64,000 nucleotides of DNA from an uncultured Candidatus Micrarchaeota archaeon (GCA_963800555.1 CAWDBH010000006.1:5851-69850), one strand, 5' to 3'; shown: positions 5,874-36,600, counted from the first letter of the stretch. Made by a program: numbers and translations. Notes: generated from the letters alone by a model not told the origin.

Positions 5874-5887
5874 TTTTTGCACCTTCC

Positions 5888-7360: not shown

Positions 7361-7361
7361 C

Positions 7362-8042: not shown

Positions 8043-8044
8043 AT

Positions 8045-8497: not shown

Positions 8498-8707
8498 CTC
8501 GATTATTAGTTAAAATTATGAATAGTTAAGCTTTTTAACTGATGCAAAACCCTCTTCCTGCACGGATAACATTGAGTCTGTCTTATAAACGTGTTGACAA
8601 AACCTTTCTGATCGCAGGGGCCTTTAGGCTGGACTTCTCGTTGATGCCTATCTTGAAAAAGCCTGATTTATAAAAGAAATATGAGATTCAGGTGAAAGGG
8701 GAACTCT

Positions 8708-18010: not shown

Positions 18011-18020
18011 TGACACCTTC

Positions 18021-19655: not shown

Positions 19656-20602
19656 CAGTCCCTCAACTCCTTGCTTGTCAGGTTGAGGAAGACGTCCTCT
19701 AGGGACGGCTCCGTGGATTTGAGCTCCTTGACCTCGACCCCTTTCTTCTCCAGGAAATTGGATAGCTTGTGGAGCACGCCGCCCTCGACGCTCGCCACGG
19801 TCATCACTATAGTATGATTATGGGTATCCACTGCCGTGGCTTTGACCAGCGACGATACGTCCTTGATGAGCTTCTCATCGGTGCGGTCCAGCTCCAGCAT
19901 TATCTTGTGCCCTCCCCCGTATTTCGTTTTGAGCTCGCTAGGGGTGCCTTCCGCTATTATCTTGCCGTGATCCATGATCGCGATCCGCTCGCACAGCTTG
20001 TCCGCCTCTTCCATGTCGTGCGTGGTATAGACTATCGTGACACCTGATTCGTTGAGGGATTTCGTCAGCTCCCTGATGGCTATCCTGCTCTGGGGGTCCA
20101 ACCCGGTCGTGGGCTCGTCCATGAAGAGTATCTCGGGCCGGTGGAGGAGGCCTGCCGCGACCGAAAGCCTCTGTTTCATGCCTCCGGAGAAGCCCCCCGC
20201 CTTGACGTCCTTCTTGTCCAGGAGGTTAACTATCTTCAGCAGCTCGAGGCTCCTCTTCTCAAGCTCCTCCTTCTTCATGCCGAAAAGCGCTCCGATGTAC
20301 CAGAGGTTCTCCATGGCGGTGAGCTCGTCGAACAGGGCGAATTCCTGGGGCACGACGCCTATCTTGCTCCGCACGAGCGATGCCTGCGTCCGGACATCGA
20401 AGGAGGCGACCCTGGCCTCCCCGGCGCTCGGGACGAGGAGCGTGGTGAGCATCTTTATGGTCGTGGTCTTCCCCGCGCCGTTCGGGCCTAGGAAACCGAA
20501 GATCTCACCTTTCATTATCTTGAGGTTGGAGTTGTCGACAGCGGTGAACTTCTTGAATCTCATGGTCAGTCCAGAGCAATCTATAGCGTATTCTGCAGCC
20601 AT
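19655..20602 (-). CDS. ABC exporter ATP-binding subunit
   Basis: GPNGAGKT, FSGGMKQR, MDEPTTGLD. Confidence 0.95.
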   Translation of the reverse strand: MAAEYAIDCSGLTMRFKKFTAVDNSNLKIMKGEIFGFLGPNGAGKTTTIKMLTTLLVPSAGEARVASFDVRTQASLVRSKIGVVPQEFALFDELTAMENLWYIGALFGMKKEELEKRSLELLKIVNLLDKKDVKAGGFSGGMKQRLSVAAGLLHRPEILFMDEPTTGLDPQSRIAIRELTKSLNESGVTIVYTTHDMEEADKLCERIAIMDHGKIIAEGTPSELKTKYGGGHKIMLELDRTDEKLIKDVSSLVKATAVDTHNHTIVMTVASVEGGVLHKLSNFLEKKGVEVKELKSTEPSLEDVFLNLTSKELRD

Positions 20603-22851: not shown

Positions 22852-24193
22852 ATGAAGAACGATCTTGTCGAGGAGTCTGTTTTAGTATTGAGCGTCTTGA
22901 AATGGGTTTTCCTTGCATCTATCATCGGGGTCCTCGTTGGTGCATCGACTGCAATTTTCCTCAGAAATCCTCGGTGTGAGCACACAGGTGATGGAGGGCC
23001 AGCCATATTACTTACTCGCGCTTCCATTAGCTTTCCTGGCAAGTACTTTGTTGGTAACTAGGCTGGCCCCCGAAGCCGAGGGTCATGGCACCGAGAAGGT
23101 GATCGAGGCGATCCATAAGAGGAACGGGAGGATTGCCCCCATGGTCGTACCGGTCAAACTTTGCGCCACCATCATCACCCTTGCCAGCGGAGGCTCTGCG
23201 GGCAAAGAGGGGCCATGCGCCCAGATCGGGGCCGGCATCGCATCCGTCTTCGCTGATATCTTCTCTTTCAGCGATGCCGATCGTAAAAAGATAGTCATCT
23301 GCGGCATCAGTGCCGGCTTCGCAACGGTATTCGGAACGCCAATCGCAGGAGCCATATTCGGTGTCGAGGTTCTTGTCGTTGGAGGGATGTTCTATTCCGC
23401 TCTCCTGCCCTCCCTTATCGCAGGCCTCATAGGGTATCAAACCGCTCTTGCGATCGGGATACAGTACCCTTCGTATCAGGTGGTTATCCCCCCGGATTTC
23501 GGTGGAGTGTCACTGCTTGAAGTCATCGGGGCGGGGCTGTTCTTAGGGATAATCGCGTTCATCTTCATCGAAGTCCTAGGATATTTCAATAAATTGTCGG
23601 AGGGGCTTAAGCTCTCGAAACCGGTCAAGGCAGTGGTGGGTGGCGCGTCTCTGGCGCTGATTGGCTTGGTATTCTCCACCGCTTACCTCGGAGTAGGGTT
23701 CGGAACGATTTATTCGGCATTGCGCGGAGACAATATCGCGTCCGGAACTTCATTCTTGAAGATTGTGACGACTTCAATCACGCTGAATTTCGGAGGGAGC
23801 GGCGGCATAGTAACACCTATCTTCTTCATCGGATCTACGGCCGGTTCCCTCTATGCCCATCTTCTCGGGCTCAATCTAGCCACCTTTGCGGCCATAGGCT
23901 TCGTCGCCCTTCTAGCCGGAGCGACGAACGCTCCTATCGCGGCCATCGTGATGTCTATAGAGCTTTTCGGACCGGCCTTAGCGTCATTCGCGACGGTCGC
24001 TTGCATAGTAAGTTACGTGATAGTCGGCCACAGGAGCGTCTATCCTTCGCAGCTGCTGAGGATGACAAAATCGGATTCGCTTGAAGTCGGTGGCAATGAG
24101 ATCGGAGACCCTATGACGCAGCTCAAGTCAAAAGGCAGGATAGGCTTCGCGGAGGAAAAACTGAGGCGGTTCTTCCATCTGGATGATGACTGA
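22852..24193 (+). pseudogene. CLC family chloride channel/antiporter with a +1 frameshift near 22963-22967 (real lesion or sequence error)
   Basis: GHGTE, GGSAGKEGP, FGTPIAGAIF, GGIVTPIF; the first helix (LKWVFLASIIGVLVG) is in a different frame from the rest. Confidence 0.85.
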
Positions 24194-24338
24194 CCGTTGC
24201 TGCATCTGTGAAGAACCTGATTTCTTGAACCTGGGGCAAGAAAATGGGGTTCCGGGTTTAGCCATTATAATTTAAGCGTTGAGATATTTTTCAATAAACA
24301 GGAGATATATTTTTCAGACAGGATCAAAAGGTGAAACT

Positions 24339-24746
24339 ATGAAGACAATCAGGATAGTCGAAAACGACGAAGTCGGCATCGTGGCGGACATCTCCCATGC
24401 ATTGGGAAGCGCCAAGATAAACATTAATTCGATCCATGTTGATGTGGTGGCAGGCAAGGCCATAATCACGATCGGTATTTCGGATGCCGCCAGGGGTAGG
24501 GAAGTCCTTGAATCTGCTGGTTATACGGTAGAGGAAACCGATGAGCTCGTGATAGCCCTGGATGACAAGCCGGGCGAGCTGGACACAGTCGCACGCATAT
24601 TGGCAAAAGGGAGGATAAATATCGAAAAGATGATCACGCTCTCCAATAACGGCGAAAAGTCGGTCCTATCCATCAAGGTGGATGATCCCGCAAAGGCCGC
24701 GGTCCTGCTGAAGAAATATCTGATAGCGGATGATATGTCCATGTAA
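24339..24746 (+). CDS. Double ACT domain protein
   Basis: ENDEVGIVADIS..L....INI and DDKPGEL..VA..L....INI; AGGTGA upstream. Confidence 0.88.
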   Translation: MKTIRIVENDEVGIVADISHALGSAKININSIHVDVVAGKAIITIGISDAARGREVLESAGYTVEETDELVIALDDKPGELDTVARILAKGRINIEKMITLSNNGEKSVLSIKVDDPAKAAVLLKKYLIADDMSM

Positions 24747-24791: not shown

Positions 24792-26099
24792 TCAAACTTT
24801 CTTATCGATGATGCTTCGGGCTATCTCGATGCTCCGCTTCAGCGTCCGGTTCTCGCTCTCGTCCTGGGCGATGAGCTCGGAATCTATCCGGTTCTTCATC
24901 GATACGAACGATTTCGCCTCGTCGTTAAGGACGTCGAGCCCCATCATGGTCGCTATCTCATCGTATCTCTGCCCTTCGGCATAGATCTTGTATATGCGAT
25001 CGGAGACTTCCTTGTGCTCCTTGCTCATCGCGAAATGCATCATCCTGGACAGCGAGGTTAGGATGTCCGTCGGCGGGTAGACGCCGCGGTTGTGCATGTC
25101 CATATTGAGTATAAGCTGGCCTTCGGAGATGTACCCGGTCGTGTCCGGTACAGGATGGGTAATATCATCGTTGGGCATGGTCAGGAACGGCAGCTGGGTT
25201 ATGCTCCCCGGCACGTCTTTCTGTAGCCCGCAGCGCTCGTACATGCTGGCCAAGTCGCTGAAAAGGTAGGACGGATACCCCTGGCGCACGGTGAGCTCCT
25301 CTTTAGCAGATGAGAGGTTCCTCAATGTATCGGCGTAATTAGTCATATCCCCTATTATCGCGAATACATCATAGCCCTTCTCGAAGGCGAAGTATTCTGC
25401 GGCCGTCAGCGCGTTCTTCGGAGCCAGCAGGGCTTCCCCAGGCGGGTCGCTCTCCGAATTCAGGAACAGCACGGAGTTGTTGGTTATCCTGAACTCCTCG
25501 AGCTTGGTGGTTATGTAATTCTCCTCATCATGGCTCAGGCCGATGCCCGCCATGACGACGACGAAATGGTTCTTCGAGTTCTGGATCGACTGGCGCATGA
25601 TCTGCATGATTATCTCCAGGAGCGGAGCGCCTACAGGGGAGAAAAGCGCCAGTTTCTGTCCCACCACGATGCTGTTGAGCAGGTCTATGGAGGATATCCC
25701 GGTCTCGATCAGCCTGCTCGGCACTTTGCGGTAGTAAGGGTTCAGGATCGAGCCGTTTATGTCCATCCTCCGGTTGGAGAATATCTCCAGCTTGCCATCC
25801 CTGCTCTCGCCCTTGCCATCGAAAATCCGCCCAAGCATGAGCTCGGAGACCGGAAGCTTGACAGTCTCGAAAGTCCCCCGGATGCCGACCTTCCGGCCCA
25901 GGCCCGAAGTGCCTTCGAAGACCTCGATGAAATAGACATCCCCGTCTATCGCTATGACGCGGCCCTTCCTTCGCTCGCCTTTAGATGTCAGTATGTACAC
26001 TATGTCGCCATAGGACGCCTCGATCCCCTCGGCGACCAGGATCGGGTCCTTTATCTCCTTCACGCTCGTGTAGCGGACAATCCTTTTCCAGTTAAACAT
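24792..26099 (-). CDS. atpB: A/V-type ATPase subunit B (divergent)
   Basis: IETGISSID, GQKL, GYPSYLFSDLASMYERCG, DITHPVPDTTGYISEGQ, SLSRM. Confidence 0.93.
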   Translation of the reverse strand: MFNWKRIVRYTSVKEIKDPILVAEGIEASYGDIVYILTSKGERRKGRVIAIDGDVYFIEVFEGTSGLGRKVGIRGTFETVKLPVSELMLGRIFDGKGESRDGKLEIFSNRRMDINGSILNPYYRKVPSRLIETGISSIDLLNSIVVGQKLALFSPVGAPLLEIIMQIMRQSIQNSKNHFVVVMAGIGLSHDEENYITTKLEEFRITNNSVLFLNSESDPPGEALLAPKNALTAAEYFAFEKGYDVFAIIGDMTNYADTLRNLSSAKEELTVRQGYPSYLFSDLASMYERCGLQKDVPGSITQLPFLTMPNDDITHPVPDTTGYISEGQLILNMDMHNRGVYPPTDILTSLSRMMHFAMSKEHKEVSDRIYKIYAEGQRYDEIATMMGLDVLNDEAKSFVSMKNRIDSELIAQDESENRTLKRSIEIARSIIDKKV

Positions 26100-27735
26100 A
26101 TGCCAACCGTTCCTTTATCTCCTTGAGAAGATTCTCTGCGCCTTTCTCATCGCTACCCTTCATGCCGCTTATCCTAGATTCGATTTCCTTGTCGAATTTG
26201 ATCTGGCCGGATTTGCGGAACACGGAGCTGATGAAAGCATGGTACTCCACGACCGCCTCGACCATCGCGGATGTCTTCAATCGCGAGCTGTAGACATCGT
26301 TTTCGTCATAGGCGTTCTGGACGAGGAAATCATTCCGGGCGATTCGCGTCACATGCAGGGTCATCTTCTGATCCGGGGACAGTGCTTCATAGCCGACTAT
26401 CTTCTCGACCTCTTCGATCTCGAACCCCTTCCCTATCAGGGTTCTCAGCATCTTGATGTTGGCTCCGGCTTTACCGCGGACATCATCCCAGCCCCCTACC
26501 AGATCGGTGAAATATTTCGAGAAGCTGATGCGCAGGTCGACGGCGGGGAAGATCCGCGCGTGGGCGAGGTCGGAGCTCATGAAGATGGCAACCCCCGCAG
26601 AACTGGCCGCGTACTGGGTTATAGGCTCGGAGAAGTCGCCGCTCGGCGGCGAGATGGACGCGATCATGGTGAGGCATCCTTTCTTCCCTCCCAAGGTCTC
26701 CACGCAACCTGACCTCGAGTAGAATTCCTTTATCCTTTCCTGCAGGTAAGGCGGGTAGCCTTCCTCAGCCGGGATGACTTCCATTATGCCTCCTACCTCT
26801 CTCAGGGCCTCAGCCCAGCGGCTCATGGAATCGACCATCAGGAGCACGCTTTTCCCGGTGTCGCGGAAGTACTCCGCTATAGTCGCCCCCGCATATATGC
26901 TGCTCTCGCGCGCGATGATAGGCATGTTCGATGTGTTCGCTATGACGGCGGTGTCATCCAGCTTCCCGCTTTCGCGCATGGTGCTGATGAAATCCGCCAT
27001 CTCGTTCCCCCTCTCGCCGCAGCCCACGAAGACCTTCAGGTTGGTGTCAGCGTATTCGGCGAAATTGTGCTGGAATGTCGTCTTGCCGGACCCGAACCCC
27101 CCCGGGATCGCGGTGGTCCCCCCTTTCTTCACCTGGAGGAACGCGTCTATGACCCGCTGGCCGGTCGTGAGCATCTCGTTCTCGAAGACGCGCTTCCTGA
27201 ACGGGCGCGGCTCCCGGATGGGCCACTCGTGGGACATCGCCACAGGTTTTCCGTCGACATGGCACACCGGCTCGTAGATCGTGAACTTGCCTTCGCTAAC
27301 ATCCTCCACGGCACCGGAGATATCCGGAGGGAGCAGTATCGCCTGGCCCTCCGCGGTCCCTATCGCCTGGCCGCCCGTGAGCTTCCCGCCTTTCTTGATT
27401 GCGGGCTTGAAATCGAATTTAGTTTTGAGCTTGTTGCCTATGGAAGCGGTATAGAACGGCCTCCCTTCGAGGGACATCTCCAGGCCGTCGAAGAAGTGGC
27501 CGAGTATGTGGGGGCCGACCTCCACGGTTATCGGCCGCCCGAGTTCCTCTACCTTGTCGCCTACCGACAGGCCGTCTGGGCTGGTGAACACCTGGATCGA
27601 GCAGATGCCATTGCCGAGGATATCGATTATCTCCCCATAGCCCTCTTCGCCAATGCGGACCGTTTCGTACATCCTGGCCGAGATTCCGCTGGCGCGGATG
27701 ATTATGCCCTTTATCGTGGTTATCTTCCCCATCAT
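26092..27735 (-). CDS. atpA: A/V-type ATPase catalytic subunit A (divergent, short)
   Basis: GGFGSGKT P-loop, GCGERGNEM, ANTSNMP, DSMSRWAEALRE, PAEEGYPPYL, GDFSEP. Confidence 0.95.
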   Translation of the reverse strand: MMGKITTIKGIIIRASGISARMYETVRIGEEGYGEIIDILGNGICSIQVFTSPDGLSVGDKVEELGRPITVEVGPHILGHFFDGLEMSLEGRPFYTASIGNKLKTKFDFKPAIKKGGKLTGGQAIGTAEGQAILLPPDISGAVEDVSEGKFTIYEPVCHVDGKPVAMSHEWPIREPRPFRKRVFENEMLTTGQRVIDAFLQVKKGGTTAIPGGFGSGKTTFQHNFAEYADTNLKVFVGCGERGNEMADFISTMRESGKLDDTAVIANTSNMPIIARESSIYAGATIAEYFRDTGKSVLLMVDSMSRWAEALREVGGIMEVIPAEEGYPPYLQERIKEFYSRSGCVETLGGKKGCLTMIASISPPSGDFSEPITQYAASSAGVAIFMSSDLAHARIFPAVDLRISFSKYFTDLVGGWDDVRGKAGANIKMLRTLIGKGFEIEEVEKIVGYEALSPDQKMTLHVTRIARNDFLVQNAYDENDVYSSRLKTSAMVEAVVEYHAFISSVFRKSGQIKFDKEIESRISGMKGSDEKGAENLLKEIKERLAYV

Positions 27736-28268
27736 TTCTCACCCATCGCCTTGTCCGCGTACAGCGGCAGGATGAACTCCTTGATGAAAGTCGGCGAGAA
27801 ATCCGCGTAAGCGTTGCCGCGGTATAGTTTGAGCTCCAGCTTCTTCTTGCTCAATTCCGTGGGAGACTCGGATTTCATGTAAGGATAGAATTCAGCGCTC
27901 GCGATCGCGCTCTCCGGCTTCCCGAACATCTGTTGGAACTTCGCCAGGGCGAATCGCGCGTAGTCTTTCGGGTGAGCACCTATCCTCTTCTCGGTTTTTT
28001 CCCATGCCCGGTTGAACGAGCTGATGAGCACCTTGTAATCCTCATAGAGCTCGGTGTAATCGTGCTCCCTTTTCAGGTATGCTTCGGAGTTCTTCAGTAT
28101 GGAATCGTAATATTCTTTCATTATGGCCTTCTTCCCATTCCTTTTCTGCTCGATGAGGGCGAGATAGGCGTTCTCCTTTTCCTTATAATGCTGGGCGATG
28201 CGCTCTTTGGCCTTTTTTTCCTCCGCGTCTATCACATTGAGGATGGCCTGCACGTTCCCTTCGATCAT
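27732..28268 (-). CDS. atpE: Probable A/V-ATPase subunit E
   Basis: N-terminal charged coiled coil, 178 aa, translationally coupled upstream of atpA. Confidence 0.6.
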   Translation of the reverse strand: MIEGNVQAILNVIDAEEKKAKERIAQHYKEKENAYLALIEQKRNGKKAIMKEYYDSILKNSEAYLKREHDYTELYEDYKVLISSFNRAWEKTEKRIGAHPKDYARFALAKFQQMFGKPESAIASAEFYPYMKSESPTELSKKKLELKLYRGNAYADFSPTFIKEFILPLYADKAMGEK

Positions 28269-28561
28269 AATTCGAGCACCTCGCCTATCGTCTCCTCGGC
28301 CTTTTTCAGGTACACTTTGGACTTGGAGGATTTGTACCGCTTGATGGATTCCGTCAGTGATTCGTTCAGTGCTGCTATGGCCCCTTCCGTTTTGGAGGAG
28401 AGGCCCTTCCGGGTCTTTTCCATGTCGGCCGAATACTCGTCATCTATCATCTTCTTCTTGTCGGCCCATCCCCGTGCCTCGGAGGCCTCGAAGTCGGTGA
28501 TGTTCTTCCGCATCCGCCCCTCGGCTTCTTTCAGGCGAGCTGCGACATCGTATATCTCCAT
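28265..28561 (-). CDS. Probable A/V-ATPase subunit H/G (peripheral stalk)
   Basis: 98-aa charged helix (LKEAE...), coupled to the E-like gene. Confidence 0.55.
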   Translation of the reverse strand: MEIYDVAARLKEAEGRMRKNITDFEASEARGWADKKKMIDDEYSADMEKTRKGLSSKTEGAIAALNESLTESIKRYKSSKSKVYLKKAEETIGEVLEL

Positions 28562-28603
28562 GGATTTCTAATAGGCGGCAATAATTAATATGTTTGGCTG
28601 TCA
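28562..28603. promoter_or_regulatory. Candidate bidirectional promoter of the two ATPase half-operons
   Basis: ~42-bp gap between head-to-head genes with a central AATAATTAATAT. Confidence 0.45.
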
Positions 28604-29239
28604 TTGAGGGTTGTGGACGAATACAGCGAAGTGCTGATTGGCATGACATGCGCGGTCTATGGATCGCGTATAATCCCCCAGGCGGCATTAGATGCGATGG
28701 AAGGCGAGAGGCTCCAGGACATCCTGCCCCAGCTGATTACTTTCGGCGAGGACGAGATTGTCGCGGCCCTAAGGAACGGGGACCATGCCGCTATCGATGT
28801 CTCCTGCGGGCGCGGCCTGCTGAAGTTCGTGAATGGTATATCGCTATACCTGCCCGATGGCATCGCTAAGATATGCGCTTATCTCTACGACATGTGGTTC
28901 CAGTACCTCTCCCGGGCGAACCGGCCCGCATCGACAAGCGCCGACAAGGATGATCCGGTGAATTACGGGAAGGAGGAATTCTCCAGGTTCGTGATGGACA
29001 AGATCACCGAAATGGCTTCGAAACTATCGCAGGAGGACCGCCTGGCGGTCAGGACGTTATCTTCGTTCGTGCTCTATAACCAGGGGATGAGGATCGCGGA
29101 TGATAAGCGGGCCCATGGCCTATGGGCGCTCATGGATCTCCTTTACCGGAAAACCGATGAGACCGAGCACCTCTCGCGTATCCTGCATACCATGCTCATA
29201 AGGGAAGAGATATGGAAGAAAAACCTGTTTGTCGGATAA
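28604..29239 (+). CDS. Possible reduced A/V-ATPase subunit C(d)
   Basis: Helical 211-aa ORF heading C?-F?-D-x-I-K; assignment by position only. Confidence 0.4.
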   Translation: MRVVDEYSEVLIGMTCAVYGSRIIPQAALDAMEGERLQDILPQLITFGEDEIVAALRNGDHAAIDVSCGRGLLKFVNGISLYLPDGIAKICAYLYDMWFQYLSRANRPASTSADKDDPVNYGKEEFSRFVMDKITEMASKLSQEDRLAVRTLSSFVLYNQGMRIADDKRAHGLWALMDLLYRKTDETEHLSRILHTMLIREEIWKKNLFVG

Positions 29240-29427
29240 AGGACGACTTCGTGCGCCAAGTCTTACTCATGATCGGCATATCCGAAGGTAAGAGCCGGTT
29301 CGTAATCTCGGACAACGAATCCGATAAATGGCAGGACGCCAATACCGTGGTCATCCCGCTCTATGACGCCAAGGAGTACATAAAAAAGAGGATACCCGAA
29401 TATGGTAGAGAAGTATACGAAGAGTGA
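29212..29427 (+). CDS. Possible reduced A/V-ATPase subunit F
   Basis: 71 aa; LLMIGI and VVIP..Y.K..I resemble subunit F motifs; directly before D. Confidence 0.5.
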   Translation: MEEKPVCRIKDDFVRQVLLMIGISEGKSRFVISDNESDKWQDANTVVIPLYDAKEYIKKRIPEYGREVYEE

Positions 29428-30004
29428 GCTGATTAAGCTCAGGAAGGAGCTCAAGACCCTCACGAACTCGAAGAGGCTACTGGAAGAGAGGAAGAAAGAG
29501 CTCTACCGCCTTTTCCGTTCGATGCTCAAGGAGCTTGCGATCCGGGAGGCCGAGTACAATTCGCAGCTGGCTAAGGTCAAGGATTCGGTTCTCACCGTAG
29601 CTGCCCAGCACAATTACATGGAAATCGTGGATGACGCATCCATACAACCGCAAGCCGTATGCACAGTCTCGAACCAAGTGTACATGAAAGGCGTCTTCGT
29701 GGAAGGTGGGAGCGTGGATTTCCCGGACCTCAAGGGTCAGTTCGTGTCGCAAGGCCTCAAGCGGGCTTTCCTGGCCGAGTTCAAATCGCTGATCGCGCTC
29801 GGGATACGTCTCGACAGCATCGTGAAAAAAGTCGTGGTGGTGAAGGACGAGCTCAAGAACGTGAGCAGGAAGCAGGGCTACATAGAGAATATCCTCATCC
29901 CGAGGGTTGAGGGGAACATAAAAATAATCGAGCGCATGTTCGAGGAGCGGAGAAGGGAAGAGCTCATAAAGGTCAAGAGATTCAAGAAGAAAGGTGTAAA
30001 ATGA
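29402..30004 (+). CDS. atpD: A/V-type ATPase subunit D
   Basis: TKSELIKLRKEL...LLEERK, ELKNVSRK..IENILIP, EERRREE. Confidence 0.88.
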   Translation: MVEKYTKSELIKLRKELKTLTNSKRLLEERKKELYRLFRSMLKELAIREAEYNSQLAKVKDSVLTVAAQHNYMEIVDDASIQPQAVCTVSNQVYMKGVFVEGGSVDFPDLKGQFVSQGLKRAFLAEFKSLIALGIRLDSIVKKVVVVKDELKNVSRKQGYIENILIPRVEGNIKIIERMFEERRREELIKVKRFKKKGVK

Positions 30005-30252
30005 AGCTCATCGACATACTTGAGTACGCAGTGCTCCTCGCTTTCATCTACACGTTCCTTTACGGGCCGGTCACCGGGAAACTATTCATAATGTACGTCT
30101 CGGTGCTCGGGTTCTTCATCTTCTCGGGAGCATCTTGGTTCGTATCGGCTGATACGCCCGTCGTGAAAGAGTACAAGCGGTATGCGATTTTCATAGAAGC
30201 GATTGCCGTCCTGATCGGGCTAATCATGATGGCGTATGTCTGGTTGTTCTAA
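30001..30252 (+). CDS. Small 3-TM protein inside the ATPase operon
   Basis: 83 aa hydrophobic ORF overlapping the D stop and the I start. Confidence 0.7.
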   Translation: MKLIDILEYAVLLAFIYTFLYGPVTGKLFIMYVSVLGFFIFSGASWFVSADTPVVKEYKRYAIFIEAIAVLIGLIMMAYVWLF

Positions 30253-31682
30253 TGTTCTCCACAAGGAACGTCTATAGGTTCGCGGTGCTCGTGCGCAAGA
30301 GCGATGCAGAGCGTACCATAGAGAAGCTGATCGCTCTGGGCGTCTTCCATCCGAAAAAGGTAGAGAAGAGCTTCGACGGGCCGTTCTCCTCCCGTTCAGC
30401 CACTCGCTTCCTCCCTTACGAAAAGAAGATTGCGGACATCACAGCGAAGATGGAGGCCGCAGGATTGACCTGCAGCGGAAGGCTGAAAATCGATGACCGG
30501 GACAAGTTCCTGGATTCCGCAGTAAAAGACCTCGCGACACTCGAGCAGAAGGCCGAAGCCAACAAGGCGGTCTCCGCGGATCTTCTGAGGCTCAAGGCTG
30601 CGTCAGAGCTCCTGGATTTCAAGAAAGCGGTGTCGGAGCTTTCCAAGTCGAGCGAGATGGCTGATGGATTCGTGATTATCGAGGGTTGGGTGGACAAGGG
30701 CAGCCTGCCGGTGCTGAAGAAGGAATGCGACGGTCCTAACACGCTCTTCGAATACATCGAAGGCGTAGATGGGCCGACGCTCCTGAAGAACCGATGGCCG
30801 TTCTCGCTGTTCGAATACGTGTCCAAGCTGTACCCGCCGTTCCGTTACGGTTCGGTTGACATAACGCCCATAATAGCCATCACATTCCCGATAATCTTCG
30901 GCGTGATGTTCGCGAGCGTTCTCGACGGGCTCATCCTTCTGATTATCGCAGCACTCTGGTATTGGAGGAGCAGAGGCGAGATGCCCCAGCTGCTCGCGAT
31001 ACTTGCGATGTCGGCGATATTCTTCGGATTCCTTTTCGGCGAATCGAGCTTTTTCGGCACGGGACCGGTCATAGACGTCTACAGCAATCCGATACTGCTG
31101 ATCGAGATAAGCATCGGCATCGGGTTCGTCCACATAACGATCGGCCATCTGCTCGGCATCGCCAATTGCCTCTCTGAAGGGAACAAGAAGGAGGCCGTGG
31201 CCCATGTCGGCTACATACTCCTCATGTTCTCCGCGCTCGCTTTCCTGCTCTCACCGCCCATTTCGTACGCGGGCATAGCTATAAGCGTCCTGATGATAAT
31301 CAGCGGAGGCGTAAAATCCATATCCGAAATCCCCCATGCGATAGGGCATCTCTTCTCCTATGCGCGCATATTCGCCATAAGCATTTCGCATTACAGCATC
31401 GCCGCGGTCTTCGACGCGCTGGCAGGGAAATTCGGATGGACGACCCCGGAGGGCATCCTCGTCTCTCTCATAATCCTGATGTGCGGGCATTTCATACTCC
31501 TGACCATCGAGCTGCTGATAGCCCTGGTCCATACGCTGAGGCTCCACATACTCGAGTTCGGGACGAAATTCATGTCCACCGGAACCGAATGGTTCAATCC
31601 TTATAAAGTGATGAATAGATATTCGGATGTGGGATCAGTTGGAAAAATGATCAAGAGGTCGTCTGATGCTGCTGTCACCTGA
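30252..31682 (+). CDS. atpI: A/V-type ATPase subunit I (a), shortened
   Basis: IEGWV, PTLLKN, FPIIFGVMF, SYARIFA (essential Arg), HTLRLHILEFGTKF. Confidence 0.92.
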   Translation: MFSTRNVYRFAVLVRKSDAERTIEKLIALGVFHPKKVEKSFDGPFSSRSATRFLPYEKKIADITAKMEAAGLTCSGRLKIDDRDKFLDSAVKDLATLEQKAEANKAVSADLLRLKAASELLDFKKAVSELSKSSEMADGFVIIEGWVDKGSLPVLKKECDGPNTLFEYIEGVDGPTLLKNRWPFSLFEYVSKLYPPFRYGSVDITPIIAITFPIIFGVMFASVLDGLILLIIAALWYWRSRGEMPQLLAILAMSAIFFGFLFGESSFFGTGPVIDVYSNPILLIEISIGIGFVHITIGHLLGIANCLSEGNKKEAVAHVGYILLMFSALAFLLSPPISYAGIAISVLMIISGGVKSISEIPHAIGHLFSYARIFAISISHYSIAAVFDALAGKFGWTTPEGILVSLIILMCGHFILLTIELLIALVHTLRLHILEFGTKFMSTGTEWFNPYKVMNRYSDVGSVGKMIKRSSDAAVT

Positions 31683-32370
31683 AATCATTGCGGTCATTGG
31701 CGCGCTGATAGCCATAATTGTACCTGGCGTGGGCTCAGGATACGCCATGCAACGGATAGGCGAACTATCGGAGACGCTGCTCAACACGAAGGTGAGCGGG
31801 TTCTTCACCAATTCCCTGGTCTTCTCGGTGCTCGCGGAGACCCCGACCATCTACGGCCTGCTCGTCGCCATACTTATTTTGATCACCATACCCAAAGGCC
31901 TTACAGAACCGCAAAGTTATGCTCTGCTATTATCCGCCATCCAGGTGGCCATACCCGGCATCGCCGCAGCCTACGCGATAGGCCTGGTCGCACAGGCCTC
32001 GCTCATAGCGATCAAGGAGAAGCCGGCCCTTTTCGGGAAGACGCTCATACTCTGCGCGCTTCCTGAGGCGATAGCCATCTACGGCCTGATAATCTCCCTC
32101 CTGGTGCTTCTCGGAGCGGGCGCCTTCGGGGTCGTGAAGGTTACCACTATGGACCAGGTCGGGTCGCTCGCAATCGTTACCATGATAATATCTGTCACGG
32201 CGGTGGTGGCCATATTCATCGGGAGGATAGCCGTCAGCGCTGTGAAGTCCCTGCTCACCAACGAAGGGGCGTTCACCCAATCGCTGATAATCGCCGTCCT
32301 GCCGGAATCAATCGCCATCTACGCCCTGCTCGTGGCCGTGCTGATACTATCGAACAGCGGCCTGGTCTGA
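31666..32370 (+). CDS. atpK: A/V-type ATPase proteolipid subunit K(c), three fused hairpins
   Basis: LAETPTIYGL, LPEAIAIYGL, LPESIAIYAL. Confidence 0.92.
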   Translation: MLLSPEIIAVIGALIAIIVPGVGSGYAMQRIGELSETLLNTKVSGFFTNSLVFSVLAETPTIYGLLVAILILITIPKGLTEPQSYALLLSAIQVAIPGIAAAYAIGLVAQASLIAIKEKPALFGKTLILCALPEAIAIYGLIISLLVLLGAGAFGVVKVTTMDQVGSLAIVTMIISVTAVVAIFIGRIAVSAVKSLLTNEGAFTQSLIIAVLPESIAIYALLVAVLILSNSGLV

Positions 32371-32382
32371 CTGGGGAATGAC

Positions 32383-33663
32383 ATGGCATTGAAGAAGGAG
32401 CTAGGTCTTGTCAATACAGTCCTGAACGGCCTCGGTGTGATTCTAGGCGCCGGCATCTATTCCTTGGTGGCGCTCGGCGCAGGGCTCGCCGGGGACATGC
32501 TCTGGCTGCCATTCTTGATATCAGCGCTGATAGCCGTTTGCACAGCGCTGAGCTATGCCGAGCTCTCAAGCGTGTTCCCGAAGGAGGCGGCCGAATACAA
32601 CTACACCCGCAAGGCCTTCAGCAAGGAATCGCTCTCGTTCTCTGTCGGATGGCTGCTCGCCATAGGTTCCGTGATAGCCGCGGCGACCGTGGCCCTGGGC
32701 TTCGGCGCGTACCTCTCCACCCTCACCGGGATAACTCCGGCCGTCGGCGCCGTCTGCCTCATCTTCGCCATGAGCCTCCTGAATTACTGGGGGATAAAGG
32801 AATCCGCGGCATTCAACAGCTTCTCCACCCTGGTGGAGGTGCTAGGCCTCGTACTGGTGGTTATCATCGCGTTCATGAGCCCGCAGAAATCCGGCGTCGA
32901 TTTCCTCCAGATGCCCGCAGGGGGATGGGCCGGCATAATGGCCGCGGTGTCCGTGGTGTTCTTCGCCTACATAGGCTTCGAGAACCTGGTCAACATCAGC
33001 GAGGAAGTCAAGGACAGCAGGCGCGTGATACCGCTGGCCCTCGTGATCTCCCTCGTAGCCTCCACGCTGCTATATCTGCTGGTGTCCATAGCCGCCATCC
33101 ACGCGGTGGGGTGGGAAGCGCTCTCCCAGTCCAAGGCCCCGCTCACTCTGGTCGTCACAGAGGAGCTCGGCCCGTACGCCTCGGTATTGTCGTACATCGC
33201 GCTCTTCGCGACCGCCAACACGGTCCTCATGTTCCTGATCGTCTCCTCGCGCATACTCTACGGCATGTCGGAGGGCGGCTCCCTCCAGAAGCTCTTCTCC
33301 AGGACCGGCTCGCGCGGGACGCCGTACCTCTCCGTGGCGGCCGTGGGGCTGGTGGCCGCGGTCATCGCTTACGCCCTGGACATCCAGACCGTGGCGCAGC
33401 TGGCCGACCTCGCGGTGTTCATAGCCTATCTATTCGTGAACGCTTCGCTGATATCGCTGGCCGGCTCGAAATACAGCCGCGGGTTCGAGAGCCCGCGCAT
33501 CCTCGGGATCCCCGCCCTCGCATGGTTAGGACTCATCTCCGCCCTTTTCCTACTCACGAATTTCCCGCCCGTGCTGTGGCTGATAGAAGCTGCAATCGTG
33601 CTGGTCGGGCTCGTGTTTTTCCTCTTGAACAGGACTAAGAACGTATTTTTATTCCCACCCTGA
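32383..33663 (+). CDS. APC family amino-acid permease
   Basis: ILGAGIY, SYAELSS, FFAYIGFE..N.SEE, SRILYGMS. Confidence 0.93.
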   Translation: MALKKELGLVNTVLNGLGVILGAGIYSLVALGAGLAGDMLWLPFLISALIAVCTALSYAELSSVFPKEAAEYNYTRKAFSKESLSFSVGWLLAIGSVIAAATVALGFGAYLSTLTGITPAVGAVCLIFAMSLLNYWGIKESAAFNSFSTLVEVLGLVLVVIIAFMSPQKSGVDFLQMPAGGWAGIMAAVSVVFFAYIGFENLVNISEEVKDSRRVIPLALVISLVASTLLYLLVSIAAIHAVGWEALSQSKAPLTLVVTEELGPYASVLSYIALFATANTVLMFLIVSSRILYGMSEGGSLQKLFSRTGSRGTPYLSVAAVGLVAAVIAYALDIQTVAQLADLAVFIAYLFVNASLISLAGSKYSRGFESPRILGIPALAWLGLISALFLLTNFPPVLWLIEAAIVLVGLVFFLLNRTKNVFLFPP

Positions 33664-33676
33664 CACAAATTTATAT

Positions 33677-36600
33677 ATGGCGCAAAAGGAGATCGAGCCT
33701 TCTCAGCAGCTGCTGGACCAGACCGGCCAGAAGCGGGACCTCTCCGTAGTGCCGCAGATCAGGCCAATCGATATCAAGAACGATATCGCCCGCTCATCAT
33801 CCGCCCTAGACAAGATGGACATACCAGCCCTCGGAATGAGATTCAAGGCCGAGCTCGAACGCACCAGGGAGCTGCTGAACGCATCCAAGGACGCGGTTTC
33901 CCTAGATAAAGCGAAGGAGAGGATCGAGCGCCTCTCCGGATTCTTCAAGGCCGAGAGCGGCATCCTGGGGAACGTCCCATCCGAGCTGCCCAGACGCTTG
34001 ACGCTCGAAAAGATAATCGATGCGATAGACTCCACGCTCGGCGATCCCGTCCGCGCGAAATCCGTGCTCGAGGCCGCGTCGCTGTACATTGCGCATGCGG
34101 GCAGGTACAACGCAGAGCGCGCCGAGCGGGACGCGCTTTTCGATTTCATGGTAGATAAGGGTGCCGCAGCCGGCTCCCCGTACAACAGGCTGGATGAAGG
34201 CATCCTGCGCTCGTTCCAGGCGAACGCCCTCATCATGGAGGATAACGAGAAGAAATTGGTCGCCGCCTGGCGCAAGGAGATCTCGCGCCAATTGCCCCTT
34301 GTGAAAAGCCCTTCGGTGGCTGGCGCCCTCAAGTCATTGGACCAGGATCCTGAAATCGAACGATATCAATGCCGAGGAATCCGCGCAGCGCTACCGCGCC
34401 ATCATGGGCATCGCCCCCCCGCTCACCGCGGAGACGAGGCTCGGGTCCATGCGCGATTCCGCGTTCGAGCTCTCGAACAAGGCGGGCGATACTGGCTGGT
34501 ACGGGACGAAAGCCCTCGAGGCGCTAGATTCCGGGGATTCCGGCATGGCGTCGCTGGCGCTTTCCATGGGCATGCTCAGCAACGCATCAGGTTCACAGTA
34601 TCTCGTTCCGGGGACTCGCAAGGAGATATCGGAGAAAATCATCAAGCGCGAGGCAATACCCCGCCCGCAGCTGAGCCGCTATCTGGACGAGGTGCATTCC
34701 GCGACCATACTGGTGGAGAGCGCGCGATTGGAGCGCGAGGCGCCGCTGGTCGGCACGCAGGAGCGCAGATCCATGGCCGAGACGATCCGCCTGGCAGCGA
34801 CCGAAATCCGCGAGCGCGCATCGGACGGGGATCTGGAATCCGCGAGGCGGCTGATAGAGATGGCAGATGGCTATTCCCGGCTCGTCAAGGCGAATGGCTG
34901 GAAGGCGTGGCCTGGCTCGTCGGAGATGGCAGCGGGGCTGCGCGAAGAGCTCAAAGGAAATGATGGCACGGCGGCTTTCGAGGCGGGGCTCGCGGTTTCG
35001 TCTTTCGCAGGCGAGACCAAAGAGTTCCGCGCCGAGATCTCGAAATGGGGGCACGGCTTATCATCGGAGAAGGAAGCCGTCTCCGAGGCGCTGTCGAAAG
35101 TGGACGAGCTCGCAGGTTCGGGGGGGTCCGCTGAAGCGAGGCGCGTGCTCTCATGCGCGGTGATGTACGCCGATGCGGTCGTCCGCCTCAGCAACGTAGG
35201 GCGTGGGAGCCCGTCCGAGATAGACGGGCACGTCCCTCCGGGCATCCTCGTAGGCATGGAATCATCGCTCTCCGCTATCATATCCGGGGATGTCGCGGGA
35301 AAAAGCGCCGAGGACGCTTTCATGGCCGGGTATTCGGCATGCATGCAGACATACGCCACGCTGCGCGCGAGCTCTTTATCATCGCTCATGCGAACCCGTC
35401 CTGCGGGGCAGGAGACGATCAAGGCAGCGCTCGAGGAATCGAGATCCAGGAGTGCGGCCGGGGATTTCCCGGGCGCGATTAGCCTGCTGACCTATGTCGA
35501 GGAGTTCTACGGCCCGCGCACTCCGAAGGCCGCAGCCGGCTGGAGATACGACCAGCTCAATTCCAAGGTCGACGGGTTCAGCCGCGGCAGGGACGGGATG
35601 GTACAGGCCATCGCTGCCGAGCTCAGAGCATCCAAACAGGATGGGCATGCTTCAGCGGAGAGGCTTTTCGACAGCTCGTTATCGCTCATATCAAGCACGC
35701 AGAACATGGTCGCCGGATTCGGCGTCCTCAAGGACATGTACTCGGGGAAGGTCCCGATGCTGCCGAAAGTGGCGGCAGGGGAGGTCCCGCTCGGAAATCT
35801 TCGCAAGGACGGCACCTACCAAGTCATACCATTGGAGCAGGTGAAGCGGTTCGAGGCGGATCCGTCCATGAAGAAAGGCCCGCGGCTGGAGAAGCTCCTG
35901 GACGATTGCCGCGCCGCCGCGCAGAGCGGAGATGCGGATGCGTACGGCCGCGCGGTGAAGGCGTTCAACGAACGTTTCGGGCTCGTCACGAACGGGGCCG
36001 TGAGGGCGCGGGCGTTCTCGGATGCGGCCAAGCAGGTGGACCAGGCGATGCTCGGCATCGGCCAGATGCGCGAGGTGTACGGGTCGGGCAAGGGAAGGGA
36101 CGATATCCTGGTCGCGCTCGGGCTGAAGGCGATCGAGATACGGGACAAGCTGGCGAAAGGCAAATTCCCGGAAGCGGAATTGGCATCGCTGATATCCGAC
36201 CTCGGCACAGAGCGGAAGCTCGCGATGGGGGTCAGCCTGCTGAACCAGCAGATAGGCGTCGGAGACGAATATTCCAAGTATGCCAGGTCCGAGAACGAGC
36301 CCCAGACCGTGGCGCATCTGGCACGCTCCATGGAGAGCCTGCTCCAGGCGAAGAGCCTGCTGATCGCAGGGAAAGCCGATGAGGCGCGTGGGAAATACGA
36401 GGCCGCGATGCATTACCGCACCAACGCGCTCATCTCGTACAGCGCCGAGAACGCTGTGAACCTGGAGGTCACGGCCACGGCCCACCGGAGGCGGCCCGGG
36501 CCGAGCGGGATAGACGAGCGCTTCTTCCCGGCATTCTGGTACAAACGGCAGGAGGCGGAGTTCGGCGGCTATTTCTCATCGATGATGGGCGTATTCGATT

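What the first reader, a model, noticed from the sequence alone, without database searches (positions are those of the whole stretch)
24792..32370. Miniaturised, highly divergent A/V-ATPase split into two head-to-head half-operons
Seen: H?-E-A-B on the minus strand and C?-F?-D-x-I-K on the plus strand, separated by ~42 bp. Subunits are short: I 476 aa, putative C 211, putative F 71, A 547, B 435. Catalytic residues are intact (P-loop, GER, Arg in SYAR, c-ring Glu). Known: archaeal operons are normally colinear HIKECFABD with I ~650, C ~350 and F ~100 aa. Inference: a distinct minimal rotary ATPase class, perhaps with one peripheral stalk because the soluble arm of I is reduced, and possibly a second-copy ion pump analogous to N-ATPases. 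The split separates head plus stator from rotor plus membrane parts.
Basis: partly seen in the sequence, partly recalled or inferred. Interest (0 to 1): 0.85.

Follow-up and report, generated by a model that had tools for sequence, protein, structure and literature searches.

The report
Shrunken second rotary ATPase, split operon
A tiny soil archaeon carries, beside its normal ATP synthase, a second, very divergent and slimmed-down rotary ATPase whose genes are split into two units, which gives a natural minimal version of this molecular motor to study.

Summary
Ten tightly packed ORFs at 24792-32370 encode a complete A/V-type rotary ATPase. B, A, E-like and H-like lie on the minus strand. C-like, F-like, D, a 3-TM protein x, I and K lie on the plus strand, 51 bp away.

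- Pfam recognises A, B, D, I and K.
- The C-like protein folds confidently, and its two best structural matches of 48,161 chains are V-ATPase subunits C and d.
- The F-like protein is predicted to bind D (0.81 against 0.01 for the best control).
- The E-like assignment rests on a weak profile match, and the H-like one on position only.
- All ten ORFs are under purifying selection.

The genome is a Candidatus Micrarchaeota MAG. It also holds a canonical HIKECFABD operon, so this cluster is a second copy.

The cluster is rare. I found it in five Micrarchaeota genomes, four of them among 401 sampled in the phylum. The two halves are always kept intact but lie head-to-head, tail-to-tail or unlinked.

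Its A subunit lies outside all sampled archaeal A-type and bacterial V-type sequences, though long-branch attraction is possible.

A role as an ion pump and a single peripheral stalk remain inferences. It is a new variant of a known kind, and I found no description in print.

The parts
24792..26099 (-). Subunit B (non-catalytic), 435 aa
   Evidence: PF00006 3e-60; NCBIfam V-type B NF003235 473.8 bits, above its cut-off of 349. It is 39% identical to the genome's canonical B and lacks about 28 C-terminal residues. dN/dS 0.043.
26092..27735 (-). Subunit A (catalytic), 547 aa
   Evidence: PF00006 1.8e-65 plus the A-specific PF16886 insert; NF003220 507.8 bits, above its cut-off of 470. The Walker A loop and the GERGNE stretch are intact. 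It is 38.7% identical to the canonical A. dN/dS 0.087.
27732..28268 (-). E-like peripheral-stalk protein, 178 aa
   Evidence: No Pfam or NCBIfam hit. hhalign against 15 canonical E sequences aligns only the C-terminal domain, collinearly, with E 8e-4 to 1e-3 and probability 21-25%. Conserved in 5 lineages. dN/dS 0.114. The assignment is tentative.
28265..28561 (-). H-like (G-like) peripheral-stalk protein, 98 aa
   Evidence: No family hit and no profile match to canonical H. It is assigned by position upstream of the E-like gene and by length only. Conserved in 5 lineages, with an invariant N-terminal EIY motif. dN/dS 0.158.
28562..28612 (.). 51-bp divergent intergenic region with a central AT-rich core (ATTAATAT, 28584-28591)
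   Evidence: By my count from the alignment, 41 of its 51 positions are identical to the sister genome, although dS in the flanking genes is about 0.8. The core lies about 26 bp from both start codons. Its role as a shared bidirectional TATA box for leaderless transcripts is inferred from general knowledge of archaeal promoters and was not tested.
28613..29239 (+). C-like (d-like) rotor socket protein, 208 aa (211 from the TTG at 28604)
   Evidence: No Pfam hit and no profile match to canonical C. The AlphaFold2 model has pLDDT 87.4 and pTM 0.84 and is all-helical. Of 48,161 chains, the best matches are 1r5z_A, V-ATPase subunit C (Z 10.3, rmsd 4.2, 184 aligned), and 6vq6_d, mammalian subunit d (Z 8.9, 189 aligned). 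The family has only 7 hits among 1.84 billion representatives. dN/dS 0.159.
29212..29427 (+). F-like central-stalk protein, 71 aa
   Evidence: No family hit or profile match. Folded alone, the model is poor (pLDDT 54.9). Predicted to bind D: ipSAE 0.81, best control 0.01, partner pLDDT 85-86, at least 94% contact agreement between runs. dN/dS 0.089.
29402..30004 (+). Subunit D (central stalk), 200 aa
   Evidence: PF01813 7.7e-20, 72 bits against a cut-off of 25.7, over its full length. dN/dS 0.139.
30001..30252 (+). x: conserved small membrane protein, 83 aa, about three hydrophobic helices
   Evidence: No family hit. It lies between D and I in 5 of 5 lineages. A profile search of 5.8 billion proteins found only 4 proteins, all from these clusters. 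No homology to I. dN/dS 0.093. Hydropathy.
30252..31682 (+). Subunit I (a-type stator), 476 aa, with a shortened soluble N-domain
   Evidence: PF01496 6.9e-16. hhalign to canonical I gives probability 99.9 and E 2e-35. The N-domain, 1-205, aligns to canonical 1-344 with the middle part missing (probability 97, E 1e-10). R372 and R430 are invariant. dN/dS 0.195.
31666..32370 (+). Subunit K (c-ring proteolipid), 234 aa, three hairpins, each with a Glu
   Evidence: PF00137 2.1e-30 in 3 stretches. The best NCBIfam hit is the 220-aa K model NF004913, at 98.7 bits, below its cut-off of 211. The three Glu are invariant in 5 lineages. dN/dS 0.032.
22913..24746 (+). Flank: ClC-family channel/antiporter (22913-24193) and ACT-pair protein (24279-24746). 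Possibly associated; not part of the machine.
   Evidence: PF00654 7.4e-71 and ACT domains. They lie next to B in the sister genome too, but not near the clusters of the three distant genomes.
32383..33663 (+). Flank: APC-family amino-acid permease, 13 bp after K on the same strand
   Evidence: PF13520 4.3e-43. Not beside K in the sister genome or in the distant genomes.

Best explanation
This is a complete and functional second rotary A/V-type ATPase of a rare, very divergent lineage. So far it is seen only in a few Candidatus Micrarchaeota (DPANN archaea), always beside a canonical A-type ATP synthase.

Shown or well supported: an A3B3-type head with intact catalytic motifs; a D stalk with a 71-aa F-like partner; a two-thirds-size C/d-like socket; a ring of triple-hairpin K subunits with three carboxylates each; and an I stator with both conserved arginines but a soluble arm that lacks about 135 residues.

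Inferred: the E-like and H-like proteins form the peripheral stalk. The small membrane protein x is an extra membrane-sector subunit or an assembly factor.

The genes form two conserved units, HEAB (head plus soluble stator) and CFDxIK (rotor plus membrane sector). In this genome they diverge from a 51-bp region whose central AT-rich core could serve both as one bidirectional promoter (inferred).

Most likely mode of action (inferred, about 50%): ATP hydrolysis in A turns D-F-C and the K ring against I, and H+ or Na+ is exported. The enzyme would then be an accessory ion pump, while the canonical enzyme makes ATP. My estimate that it is a working rotary machine at all is about 0.9. The confidence given for this explanation is for the whole statement, without the pump direction.
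For: - ORFs and families.
- Catalytic and ion-path residues are intact and conserved.
- Purifying selection acts on all ten ORFs: dN/dS 0.03-0.20.
- All ten genes are kept in five genomes.
- C-like fold: the two best of 48,161 chains are V-ATPase subunits C and d, at Z 10.3 and 8.9, on a confident model.
- F-like binding to D: score 0.81 against a best control of 0.01. That mark was reached by 58 of 80 solved complexes and 2 of 110 mismatched pairs. Partner pLDDT was 85-86 and runs agreed in at least 94% of contacts. The tool notes that its counts hold only roughly with own alignments, and that a pass may reflect likeness to solved D-F complexes.
- The E-like C-terminal domain aligns collinearly to canonical E, E about 1e-3.
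- I aligns to canonical I over its whole length except the middle of the N-domain.
- Second-copy status: a canonical operon or canonical parts are present in 5 of 5 carriers.
- Accessory and patchy: 4 strong hits among 401 phylum genomes. Of 24 other same-genus genomes searched, 1 carries it.
- The halves are moved as blocks: head-to-head in 3 genomes, tail-to-tail in 1, on separate contigs in 1.
- The intergenic region is conserved.
Against: - There are no expression data. No RNA run holds the locus.
- H-like has no homology support, and the E-like match is weak (probability 21-25%).
- The tool's own note says that Z below about 13 for helical proteins can reflect a common arrangement. Foldseek found no PDB match at E <= 0.001.
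- F-like alone folds poorly, and neither C-like nor F-like shows any sequence or profile link to the canonical subunits.
- Nothing here distinguishes a pump from a synthase. All three hairpins of K keep their carboxylate, so the ion-to-ATP ratio is not lowered in the way recalled for eukaryotic V-type pumps.
- The ClC and permease neighbours are not conserved beyond the sister genome.
- All carriers are incomplete MAGs. In one carrier (G293) the cluster is spread over three short contigs, so binning errors cannot be excluded there.
Confidence: 0.75

Rival explanations
1. It is an alternative ATP synthase, not a pump. It would be used under other conditions or with another coupling ion (for example Na+ instead of H+) than the canonical enzyme.
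For: Every K hairpin keeps its carboxylate, in 5 of 5 lineages, so the ring has a full set of ion sites. By recalled knowledge this suits synthesis. Hairpin 1 has a Gln in helix 1 and Glu-Thr in helix 2, which resembles the recalled Na+-site signature, whereas the canonical K has Glu-Val. Both conserved arginines of I are present.
Against: The distribution is accessory and patchy, and the cluster always occurs beside a canonical synthase. The reduced stator arm would have to resist the same torque. There are no functional data either way.
Confidence: 0.3
2. It is a fast-evolving, recently duplicated copy of the Micrarchaeota A-type operon, and its deep position in the tree is a long-branch artefact. 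The machine is real, but it is not an old separate lineage.
For: The clade sits on long stems (A 0.86-1.0, B 1.3-1.45 changes per column), next to the long outgroup branch. It is known only from Micrarchaeota. Support for monophyly of all other A sequences is moderate (70/82; SH-aLRT 88).
Against: An AU test rejects one clade of divergent plus canonical Micrarchaeota A (p 5.6e-8, lnL difference 74.2). The grouping was named after the tree was seen, and the test shares the model's bias towards joining long branches. The site-heterogeneous model LG+C20 was used. No accessory subunit keeps any sequence similarity to the canonical one.
Confidence: 0.3
3. It is a decaying or non-functional paralogue, or a chimeric assembly of two unrelated half-operons.
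For: The subunits are shortened. Four or five proteins are not recognisable by Pfam. The carriers are MAGs. In one sister genome a TnpB-type gene sits between I and K.
Against: dN/dS is 0.03-0.20 for all ten ORFs. No stop codons interrupt them and the catalytic motifs are intact. The same head-to-head junction occurs in two further genomes, and both halves are present in 5 of 5 carriers.
Confidence: 0.03
4. It is a rotary motor put to another task than bulk ion homeostasis, for example energising transport or contact with the host cell in these presumed symbionts.
For: DPANN archaea are described as host-dependent (abstracts listed). The cluster holds an extra orphan membrane protein x. NCBIfam holds models of F1-like ATPases of Mycoplasma gliding, which shows that such re-use exists (names; the matches there are far weaker than to the V-type models).
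Against: The full ion path (the arginines of I and the carboxylates of K) is conserved. No secretion or adhesion genes are conserved beside it.
Confidence: 0.07

Closest known systems
Canonical archaeal A1AO ATP synthase (the same genome's HIKECFABD operon on contig C1, L009:3634-12079)
   Same: The same families for A, B, D, I and K; the same catalytic and ion-path residues; the same overall set of parts.
   Different: A and B are only 39% identical. There are two transcription units instead of one colinear operon. I is 476 aa against 635, C 208 against 367, F 71 against 108. E, H, C and F are not recognisable by sequence. There is an extra 3-TM protein x. K has three hairpins, against one in the canonical K.
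V-ATPase subunit C of Thermus thermophilus (PDB 1r5z) and mammalian subunit d (PDB 6vq6 chain d)
   Same: They are the best and second-best structural matches to the C-like model among 48,161 chains: Z 10.3 with 184 aligned, and Z 8.9 with 189 aligned.
   Different: The C-like protein is about two thirds as long (208-211 aa against 320-350). Identity is 8-11%. There is no sequence or profile signal, and Foldseek finds no match.
V-type-like ATPase operons spread horizontally among acidophilic and piezophilic archaea (Wang et al. 2019, PMC6863869; passages read)
   Same: An extra or variant A/V ATPase cluster. It is a second ATPase beside the A-type in hadal Nitrosopumilus-like genomes, its spread does not follow the species tree, and it is proposed to pump protons. 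Acidophilic Micrarchaeota are named among the carriers.
   Different: That system is described as a whole operon of about 8.9 kb related to Thermoplasmatales ATPases. The present A lies outside the clade that holds all 42 other sampled A sequences, including Aciduliprofundum. It is split in two and has shortened subunits.
N-ATPase, an atypical laterally transferred F-type ATPase (Dibrova et al. 2010, PMC2881411; only the search listing and the start of the abstract were seen)
   Same: An atypical rotary ATPase found in addition to the main enzyme and spread patchily. From recall, its operon also holds extra small membrane proteins, which would be a parallel to x.
   Different: N-ATPase is F-type. 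Here the alternate-F1F0 models score far below their cut-offs (115 and 136 bits against a cut-off of 752), and all recognisable parts are A/V-type.
Triple-hairpin K subunits (NCBIfam NF004913, a 220-aa V-type K model; from recall, the Methanocaldococcus type)
   Same: K aligns over residues 4-228 to positions 3-215 of the 220-position model, and Pfam finds three ATP-synt_C stretches.
   Different: The score of 98.7 bits is below the model's cut-off of 211. All three hairpins keep the Glu. From recall, the Methanocaldococcus protein has lost one.
Bacterial V-type operons with the order E ... A-B-D-I-K (chlamydiae and spirochaetes; recalled, not tested)
   Same: Partial likeness in order: E-A-B in one unit and D ... 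I-K in the other. NCBIfam lists weaker hits to short B, D and K models (NF002555, NF002565, NF007200).
   Different: Those are single operons. The sampled bacterial V-type A sequences (Spirochaetales, Desulfuromonadales, Brevinematales) group with the ordinary A sequences, not with this clade.

Membership tests
A/V-type rotary ATPase (A1AO / V1VO) | Catalytic A subunit with a Walker A loop, a catalytic Glu region and the A-specific insert | tested here: met
   PF00006 1.8e-65, PF16886 8.5e-13, NF003220 507.8 bits above its cut-off of 470. The motifs are seen in the alignment to the canonical A.
A/V-type rotary ATPase (A1AO / V1VO) | Non-catalytic B subunit | tested here: met
   NF003235 473.8 bits above its cut-off of 349; PF00006 3e-60.
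A/V-type rotary ATPase (A1AO / V1VO) | Central stalk subunit D | tested here: met
   PF01813 72 bits above its cut-off of 25.7, covering positions 1-196 of 196.
A/V-type rotary ATPase (A1AO / V1VO) | Subunit F bound to D | tested here: inconclusive
   No PF01990 hit and no profile match. The model of the protein alone is poor. The complex prediction with D passes: 0.81 against 0.01, a mark reached by 58 of 80 solved and 2 of 110 mismatched pairs, with partner pLDDT 85-86 and at least 94% contact agreement.
A/V-type rotary ATPase (A1AO / V1VO) | Subunit C/d fold (helical socket between D and the c-ring) | tested here: met
   The model (pLDDT 87.4) best matches 1r5z_A (Z 10.3, rmsd 4.2, 184 aligned) and 6vq6_d (Z 8.9, 189 aligned) among 48,161 chains; only 3 chains reach Z >= 8. 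Caveats: for helical models a Z below about 13 can be a common arrangement; there is no PF01992 hit, no profile match and no Foldseek match.
A/V-type rotary ATPase (A1AO / V1VO) | Subunit I/a with the conserved membrane arginine(s) | tested here: met
   PF01496 57.8 bits above its cut-off of 30.7. hhalign probability 99.9. R372 and R430 are invariant in 4 of 4. Their equivalence to the essential arginine of the yeast a-subunit is recalled.
A/V-type rotary ATPase (A1AO / V1VO) | Proteolipid K/c with a membrane carboxylate | tested here: met
   PF00137 105.2 bits in 3 stretches. There is a Glu in each hairpin, invariant in 5 of 5 lineages.
A/V-type rotary ATPase (A1AO / V1VO) | E-H (E-G) peripheral stalk pair | tested here: inconclusive
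   E-like: no PF01991 hit; hhalign matches the C-terminal domain only, E 8e-4 to 1e-3, probability 21-25%. H-like: no match. The canonical H is not found by Pfam either.
Canonical archaeal A-type atp operon | One colinear operon H-I-K-E-C-F-A-B-D | tested here: not met
   There are two units on opposite strands, H-E-A-B and C-F-D-x-I-K. The canonical order is seen in the genome's own C1 operon and in 18 of 18 relatives' loci, as far as each locus reaches.
[quoted passage not shown] 2019) | The ATPase groups with the Thermoplasmatales-related clade; whole operon of about 8.9 kb | tested here: inconclusive
   The clade lies outside all 42 other sampled A sequences, but no named acidophilic Thermoplasmatales or Nitrosotalea sequence was in the tree. 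The single-operon layout is not met. The definition is taken from passages of PMC6863869.
N-ATPase (atypical F-type) | F-type alpha/beta and the other F-type subunits | tested here: not met
   The alternate-F1F0 beta model TIGR03305 scores 115.4 bits (B) and 135.7 bits (A) against a cut-off of 752. The A/V models score 474 and 508 bits.

The most novel reading that the evidence does not exclude
The cluster represents an old, separate lineage of A/V-type rotary ATPases that branched off before the radiation of today's archaeal A-type and bacterial V-type enzymes. It would survive only as an accessory enzyme in a few Micrarchaeota, with an unplaced four-member sister group. It would have a truly minimal build: one peripheral stalk held by a single-lobe I arm, a two-thirds-size d-type socket, a 71-aa F, and a new membrane subunit x.
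Probability: 0.2. Interest if true: 0.85.

Novelty: new variant of a known kind. Interest (0 to 1): 0.62.

Why it matters
Rotary ATPases are among the best studied molecular machines, yet the natural lower limit of their accessory parts is poorly known. This cluster is a naturally slimmed A/V-type enzyme under purifying selection. Its stator arm lacks a lobe, its rotor socket has lost a third of its length, its F subunit is very small, and it has an extra orphan membrane protein.

That makes several questions testable:
- How many peripheral stalks are needed?
- Which part of subunit d is essential for coupling?
- Can head-plus-stator and rotor-plus-membrane modules be expressed and assembled as separate units?

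It also adds a case of two rotary ATPases in genome-reduced DPANN archaea, where many lineages have lost the enzyme altogether (passages of PMC10656485). If its deep position is real, it also bears on reconstructions of early ATPase evolution.

Tried and rejected
**Searches and tests that gave nothing**
- Sequence routes to name the four unrecognised soluble proteins gave nothing:
  - Pfam and NCBIfam.
  - hmmsearch of the C-like and E-like alignments against PDB sequences.
  - hhalign of C-like, F-like and H-like against canonical alignments.
  - ESM Atlas for C-like and E-like.
- Foldseek of the C-like model against the PDB found 0 matches at E <= 0.001.
- The F-like protein folded alone gave pLDDT 54.9, so I did not use that model for fold searches.
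- x was compared with canonical I and with I of this cluster. There was no credible match (E 0.34; E 0.003 at probability 10%, which is probably membrane composition).

**Distribution**
- The scan of metagenome contigs with the divergent-A alignment matched 532 pattern stretches and returned 3 loci at 27-29% identity. None belongs to this clade.
- The genome-contig scan returned 6 loci. Three are the clade. The other three are bacterial, at 27-32% identity, and were set aside as unrelated ATPases.
- In the phylum search with the C-like profile, two marginal hits (G261 at 8.4e-5, G052 at 7.1e-4) were not followed up and are not counted as carriers.
- A search for the sister group 'beta' (P0007) in 401 phylum genomes found none above 49% identity. 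Its origin stays unknown. A database search found only 4 members, none with a name.

**Function and expression**
- I considered an acid-resistance island (ClC + permease + pump). I dropped it as a general reading because the neighbours are not conserved beyond the sister genome.
- Expression: no RNA holder is listed.
- Laying two DNA runs gave only short contigs. In each run 21 of 22 pieces were 99% alike or better. No listed piece bridges the head-to-head junction, so this adds presence only.

**Trees: rows left out**
- For the first tree (50 rows) I kept 26 of the 114 proteins P0007-P0120, by greedy clustering at 70% identity.
- I used 9 of the 18 canonical Micrarchaeota A sequences plus the genome's own.
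- The partial A of G027:C161 and the fragments of G293 were not included.
- No eukaryotic V-type sequence was available.

**Literature**
- Five searches found no description of a second, split or shortened A/V-ATPase in Micrarchaeota.
- Chen et al. [quoted passage not shown] 13a. Supplements are closed, so I could not see whether that overlaps with this cluster.

Full report
**1. What is there**

The window holds ten ORFs at 24792-32370, with overlaps of 1-28 nt between neighbours.
- On the minus strand: B (435 aa), A (547), an E-like protein (178) and an H-like protein (98).
- On the plus strand: a C-like protein (211 aa from a TTG, 208 from the conserved GTG at 28613), an F-like protein (71), D (200), a small hydrophobic protein x (83), I (476) and K (234).

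Pfam and NCBIfam recognise A, B, D, I and K as A/V-type subunits. A and B score above the curated cut-offs of the V-type subfamily models. The other five proteins have no hit.

The functional residues are intact:
- The Walker A loop and the GERGNE stretch of A are aligned with the canonical A.
- The SYAR arginine (R372) and a second arginine (R430) of I are invariant in four orthologues.
- K has three hairpins, each with a Glu that is invariant in five lineages.

**2. It is a second copy**

The window lies in a 1.46-Mb, 22-contig genome that is 86% complete. On another contig this genome carries a second A/B pair and a single-hairpin K. That locus is a colinear H-I-K-E-C-F-A-B-D operon with I 635, C 367, F 108, A 582 and B 468 aa. 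Pfam recognises all of its subunits except H.

The two A proteins are 38.7% identical and the two B proteins 39.1%. The canonical order recurs in 18 of 18 loci fetched from relatives, as far as each locus reaches.

**3. Who carries it**

Record titles name the relatives as Candidatus Micrarchaeota. Run labels say soil metagenome.
- Of 24 other genomes of the same genus, one (G004) has the divergent A, at 89% identity. The best match in the others is their canonical A, at about 40-45%.
- Among 8000 proteins scored from 5.8 billion, five besides the query reach 51% identity or more: 81%, 79%, 90% (partial), 53% and 51%.
- The scan of 185,579 species genomes found three loci of the clade, all Micrarchaeota. 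The JGI metagenome scan found none.
- A profile of the C-like protein found 7 proteins among 1.84 billion representatives, none of them a canonical C.
- The same profile gave 4 strong hits among 401 genomes of the phylum, plus 2 marginal hits that I do not count.

In all I examined five carriers: G000, G004 (also reached as G043), G042, G041 (also reached as G192) and G293. All five also hold a canonical A/B pair or a canonical single-hairpin K.

**4. The split is a conserved feature**

The content and inner order of each half, H-E-A-B and C-F-D-x-I-K, are the same in all five carriers. Only their relative placement differs.

| Genome | Arrangement | Detail |
|---|---|---|
| G000 | head-to-head | 51-bp gap |
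| G004 | head-to-head | all ten ORFs at 77-96% identity; a TnpB-type gene inserted between I and K |
| G293 | head-to-head | about 420-bp gap; cluster spread over three short contigs |
| G042 | tail-to-tail | H-E-A-B followed by K-I-x-D-F-C on the other strand |
| G041 | unlinked | halves on different contigs; 9 kb upstream of H and 6 kb downstream of B hold no second half; C is cut by a contig end |

Between G000 and G004 all ten ORFs have dN/dS 0.03-0.20 at dS 0.67-1.0. The small unrecognised ORFs are therefore real genes.

By my count from the alignment, 41 of the 51 intergenic positions are identical between the two genomes. Its AT-rich core lies about 26 bp from both start codons. From general knowledge of archaeal promoters, I read this as one bidirectional TATA element that serves two leaderless units. 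This is an inference.

**5. The unrecognised proteins**

*C-like.* An AlphaFold2 model from a 9-row alignment is confident (pLDDT 87.4, pTM 0.84) and all-helical. Foldseek finds nothing in the PDB. An exhaustive alignment to 48,161 representative chains ranks first the crystal structure of V-ATPase subunit C (1r5z_A; Z 10.3, rmsd 4.2, 184 aligned) and second the mammalian subunit d (6vq6_d; Z 8.9, 189 aligned). Only three chains reach Z 8. The tool warns that helical models often reach such Z values by common arrangement. Still, the two top hits being the expected subunit, in this gene context, makes a shortened C/d subunit the best reading.

*F-like.* Alone it folds poorly. With D it gives ipSAE 0.81 in three runs, against 0.01 for the best of three controls. 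Partner pLDDT is 85-86, and runs agree in at least 94% of their contacts. The mark was reached by 58 of 80 solved complexes and 2 of 110 mismatched pairs. The tool notes that these counts hold only roughly with my own alignments. The pass may partly reflect likeness to solved D-F complexes. That likeness is itself what the claim needs.

*E-like.* Only its C-terminal domain aligns, collinearly, to canonical E, with E about 1e-3 and probability 21-25%.

*H-like.* It has no support beyond position, length and conservation.

*x.* It has about three hydrophobic segments and sits between D and I in five of five lineages. It has no relatives outside these clusters: 4 proteins found in 5.8 billion. 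It has no homology to I.

**6. Where the shrinkage is**

- I aligns to the canonical I over its whole membrane part (probability 99.9).
- Its soluble N-domain (1-205) aligns to canonical 1-344 at both ends but lacks about 135 residues in the middle (probability 97, E 1e-10). From recalled structures, that stretch forms the first long helix and the distal lobe, which holds one of the two peripheral stalks. A single stalk is therefore plausible but untested.
- C has lost about 160 residues and F about 37.
- A, B and D have lost 22-35 residues each, in several small deletions. B also lacks about 28 C-terminal residues.

**7. Phylogeny**

I built trees of A rooted on B under LG+C20+F+G4.
- In a 50-row careful run, the divergent clade (6 rows) has support 100/100 on a stem of 0.87. 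It is sister to a small 'beta' group of short A proteins (95/66). The remaining 33 A sequences group at 70/82 (the quick version is).
- With ten more rows (60 in all), most of them named taxa, divergent plus beta has SH-aLRT 85. All 42 other A sequences have 88. These include Thermococcus, Methanosarcina, Aciduliprofundum, Nitrososphaerota, Bathy-, Verstraete-, Aenigm-, Nano-, Woese- and Parvarchaeota, the canonical Micrarchaeota, and three bacterial V-type sequences.
- An AU test rejects one clade of divergent plus canonical Micrarchaeota A (p 5.6e-8).

That condition is not met.

Two members of one genus (G192 and G293) carry quite different versions: their C-like proteins are about 22-25% identical. 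This suggests transfer within the phylum, old paralogy with loss, or a binning problem.

**8. How it most likely works**

With all core parts and residues conserved, the simplest reading is a working rotary enzyme. ATP is turned over at the A-B interfaces. D, the F-like and the C-like proteins turn a ring of triple-hairpin K subunits past the arginines of I. The E-like and H-like proteins tie the head to the shortened arm of I.

Three observations favour an accessory ion pump over a main ATP synthase:
- It is always accompanied by a canonical enzyme.
- It is rare and patchy.

I put the pump reading at about 50%. An alternative synthase with another coupling ion is about 30%, because every hairpin keeps its carboxylate and hairpin 1 shows a Gln ... 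Glu-Thr pattern that recalls Na+ sites (the motif is recalled).

The ClC channel and ACT protein next to B, and the amino-acid permease after K, would fit ion homeostasis. They are conserved only in part, and only in the sister genome.

**9. Novelty**

Five literature searches found no description of this cluster. [quoted passage not shown]

I rate the finding as a new variant of a known kind: a divergent, reduced and modular A/V-type ATPase with one orphan membrane component.

Noticed in passing
L022:3649-4821 (G004, between I and K of the sister cluster): A 390-aa IS605 OrfB/TnpB-type gene (PF01385, PF07282, PF12323) lies on the opposite strand between I and K. I is 465 aa there instead of 476, while K is intact.
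   Followed up: partly
L023 (G010:C67), about 4599-10893: A third kind of A/V cluster occurs in a same-genus genome (contamination about 5%). A (583 aa), B (453), I (767) and a three-hairpin K (243) lie in the order A-B-I-K on one strand, in a locus of 61.7% GC. Its A is 48% identical to the canonical A and 37% to the divergent A. In the trees it stands alone near the base. The neighbouring ORFs of 238, 83 and 356 aa have no Pfam hit.
   Followed up: partly
Proteins P0007, P0008, P0011, P0132: These form a four-member group of short A subunits (549-564 aa) and are the sister of the divergent clade in the trees. Their genomic context is unknown.
   Followed up: partly
G017:C32:2131-5352 (same genus; seen): The canonical A matches in two pieces (query residues 2-220 and 205-523) about 1.5 kb apart within one open frame of 1117 aa. 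That would fit an intein-bearing A subunit.
   Followed up: no
G002:C3:113780-115439 (same genus; seen): The canonical A matches as two adjoining pieces in different open frames (347 and 281 aa). This is a possible frameshift or assembly error in a genome that is 65% complete.
   Followed up: no
window 34404-38903: A 1499-aa ORF has only a C-terminal HD domain (PF13487, PF01966) in a stretch of 63% GC, the highest in the window. A 428-aa ORF with no Pfam hit lies just upstream (33677-34963).
   Followed up: partly
Same-order genomes of families f2, f5, f7 and f10: Several nearly complete genomes of the same order (88-98% complete) gave no match to either A query. This agrees with published loss of ATP synthase in some DPANN lineages.
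   Followed up: no
window 16805-20602: An ABC-2 type transporter pair (ATPase and permease) lies beside a protein with NPCBM-associated and CARDB domains. The block is conserved at about 89-91% identity next to the ClC gene in the sister genome, so the local gene order has been rearranged between the two genomes.
   Followed up: partly
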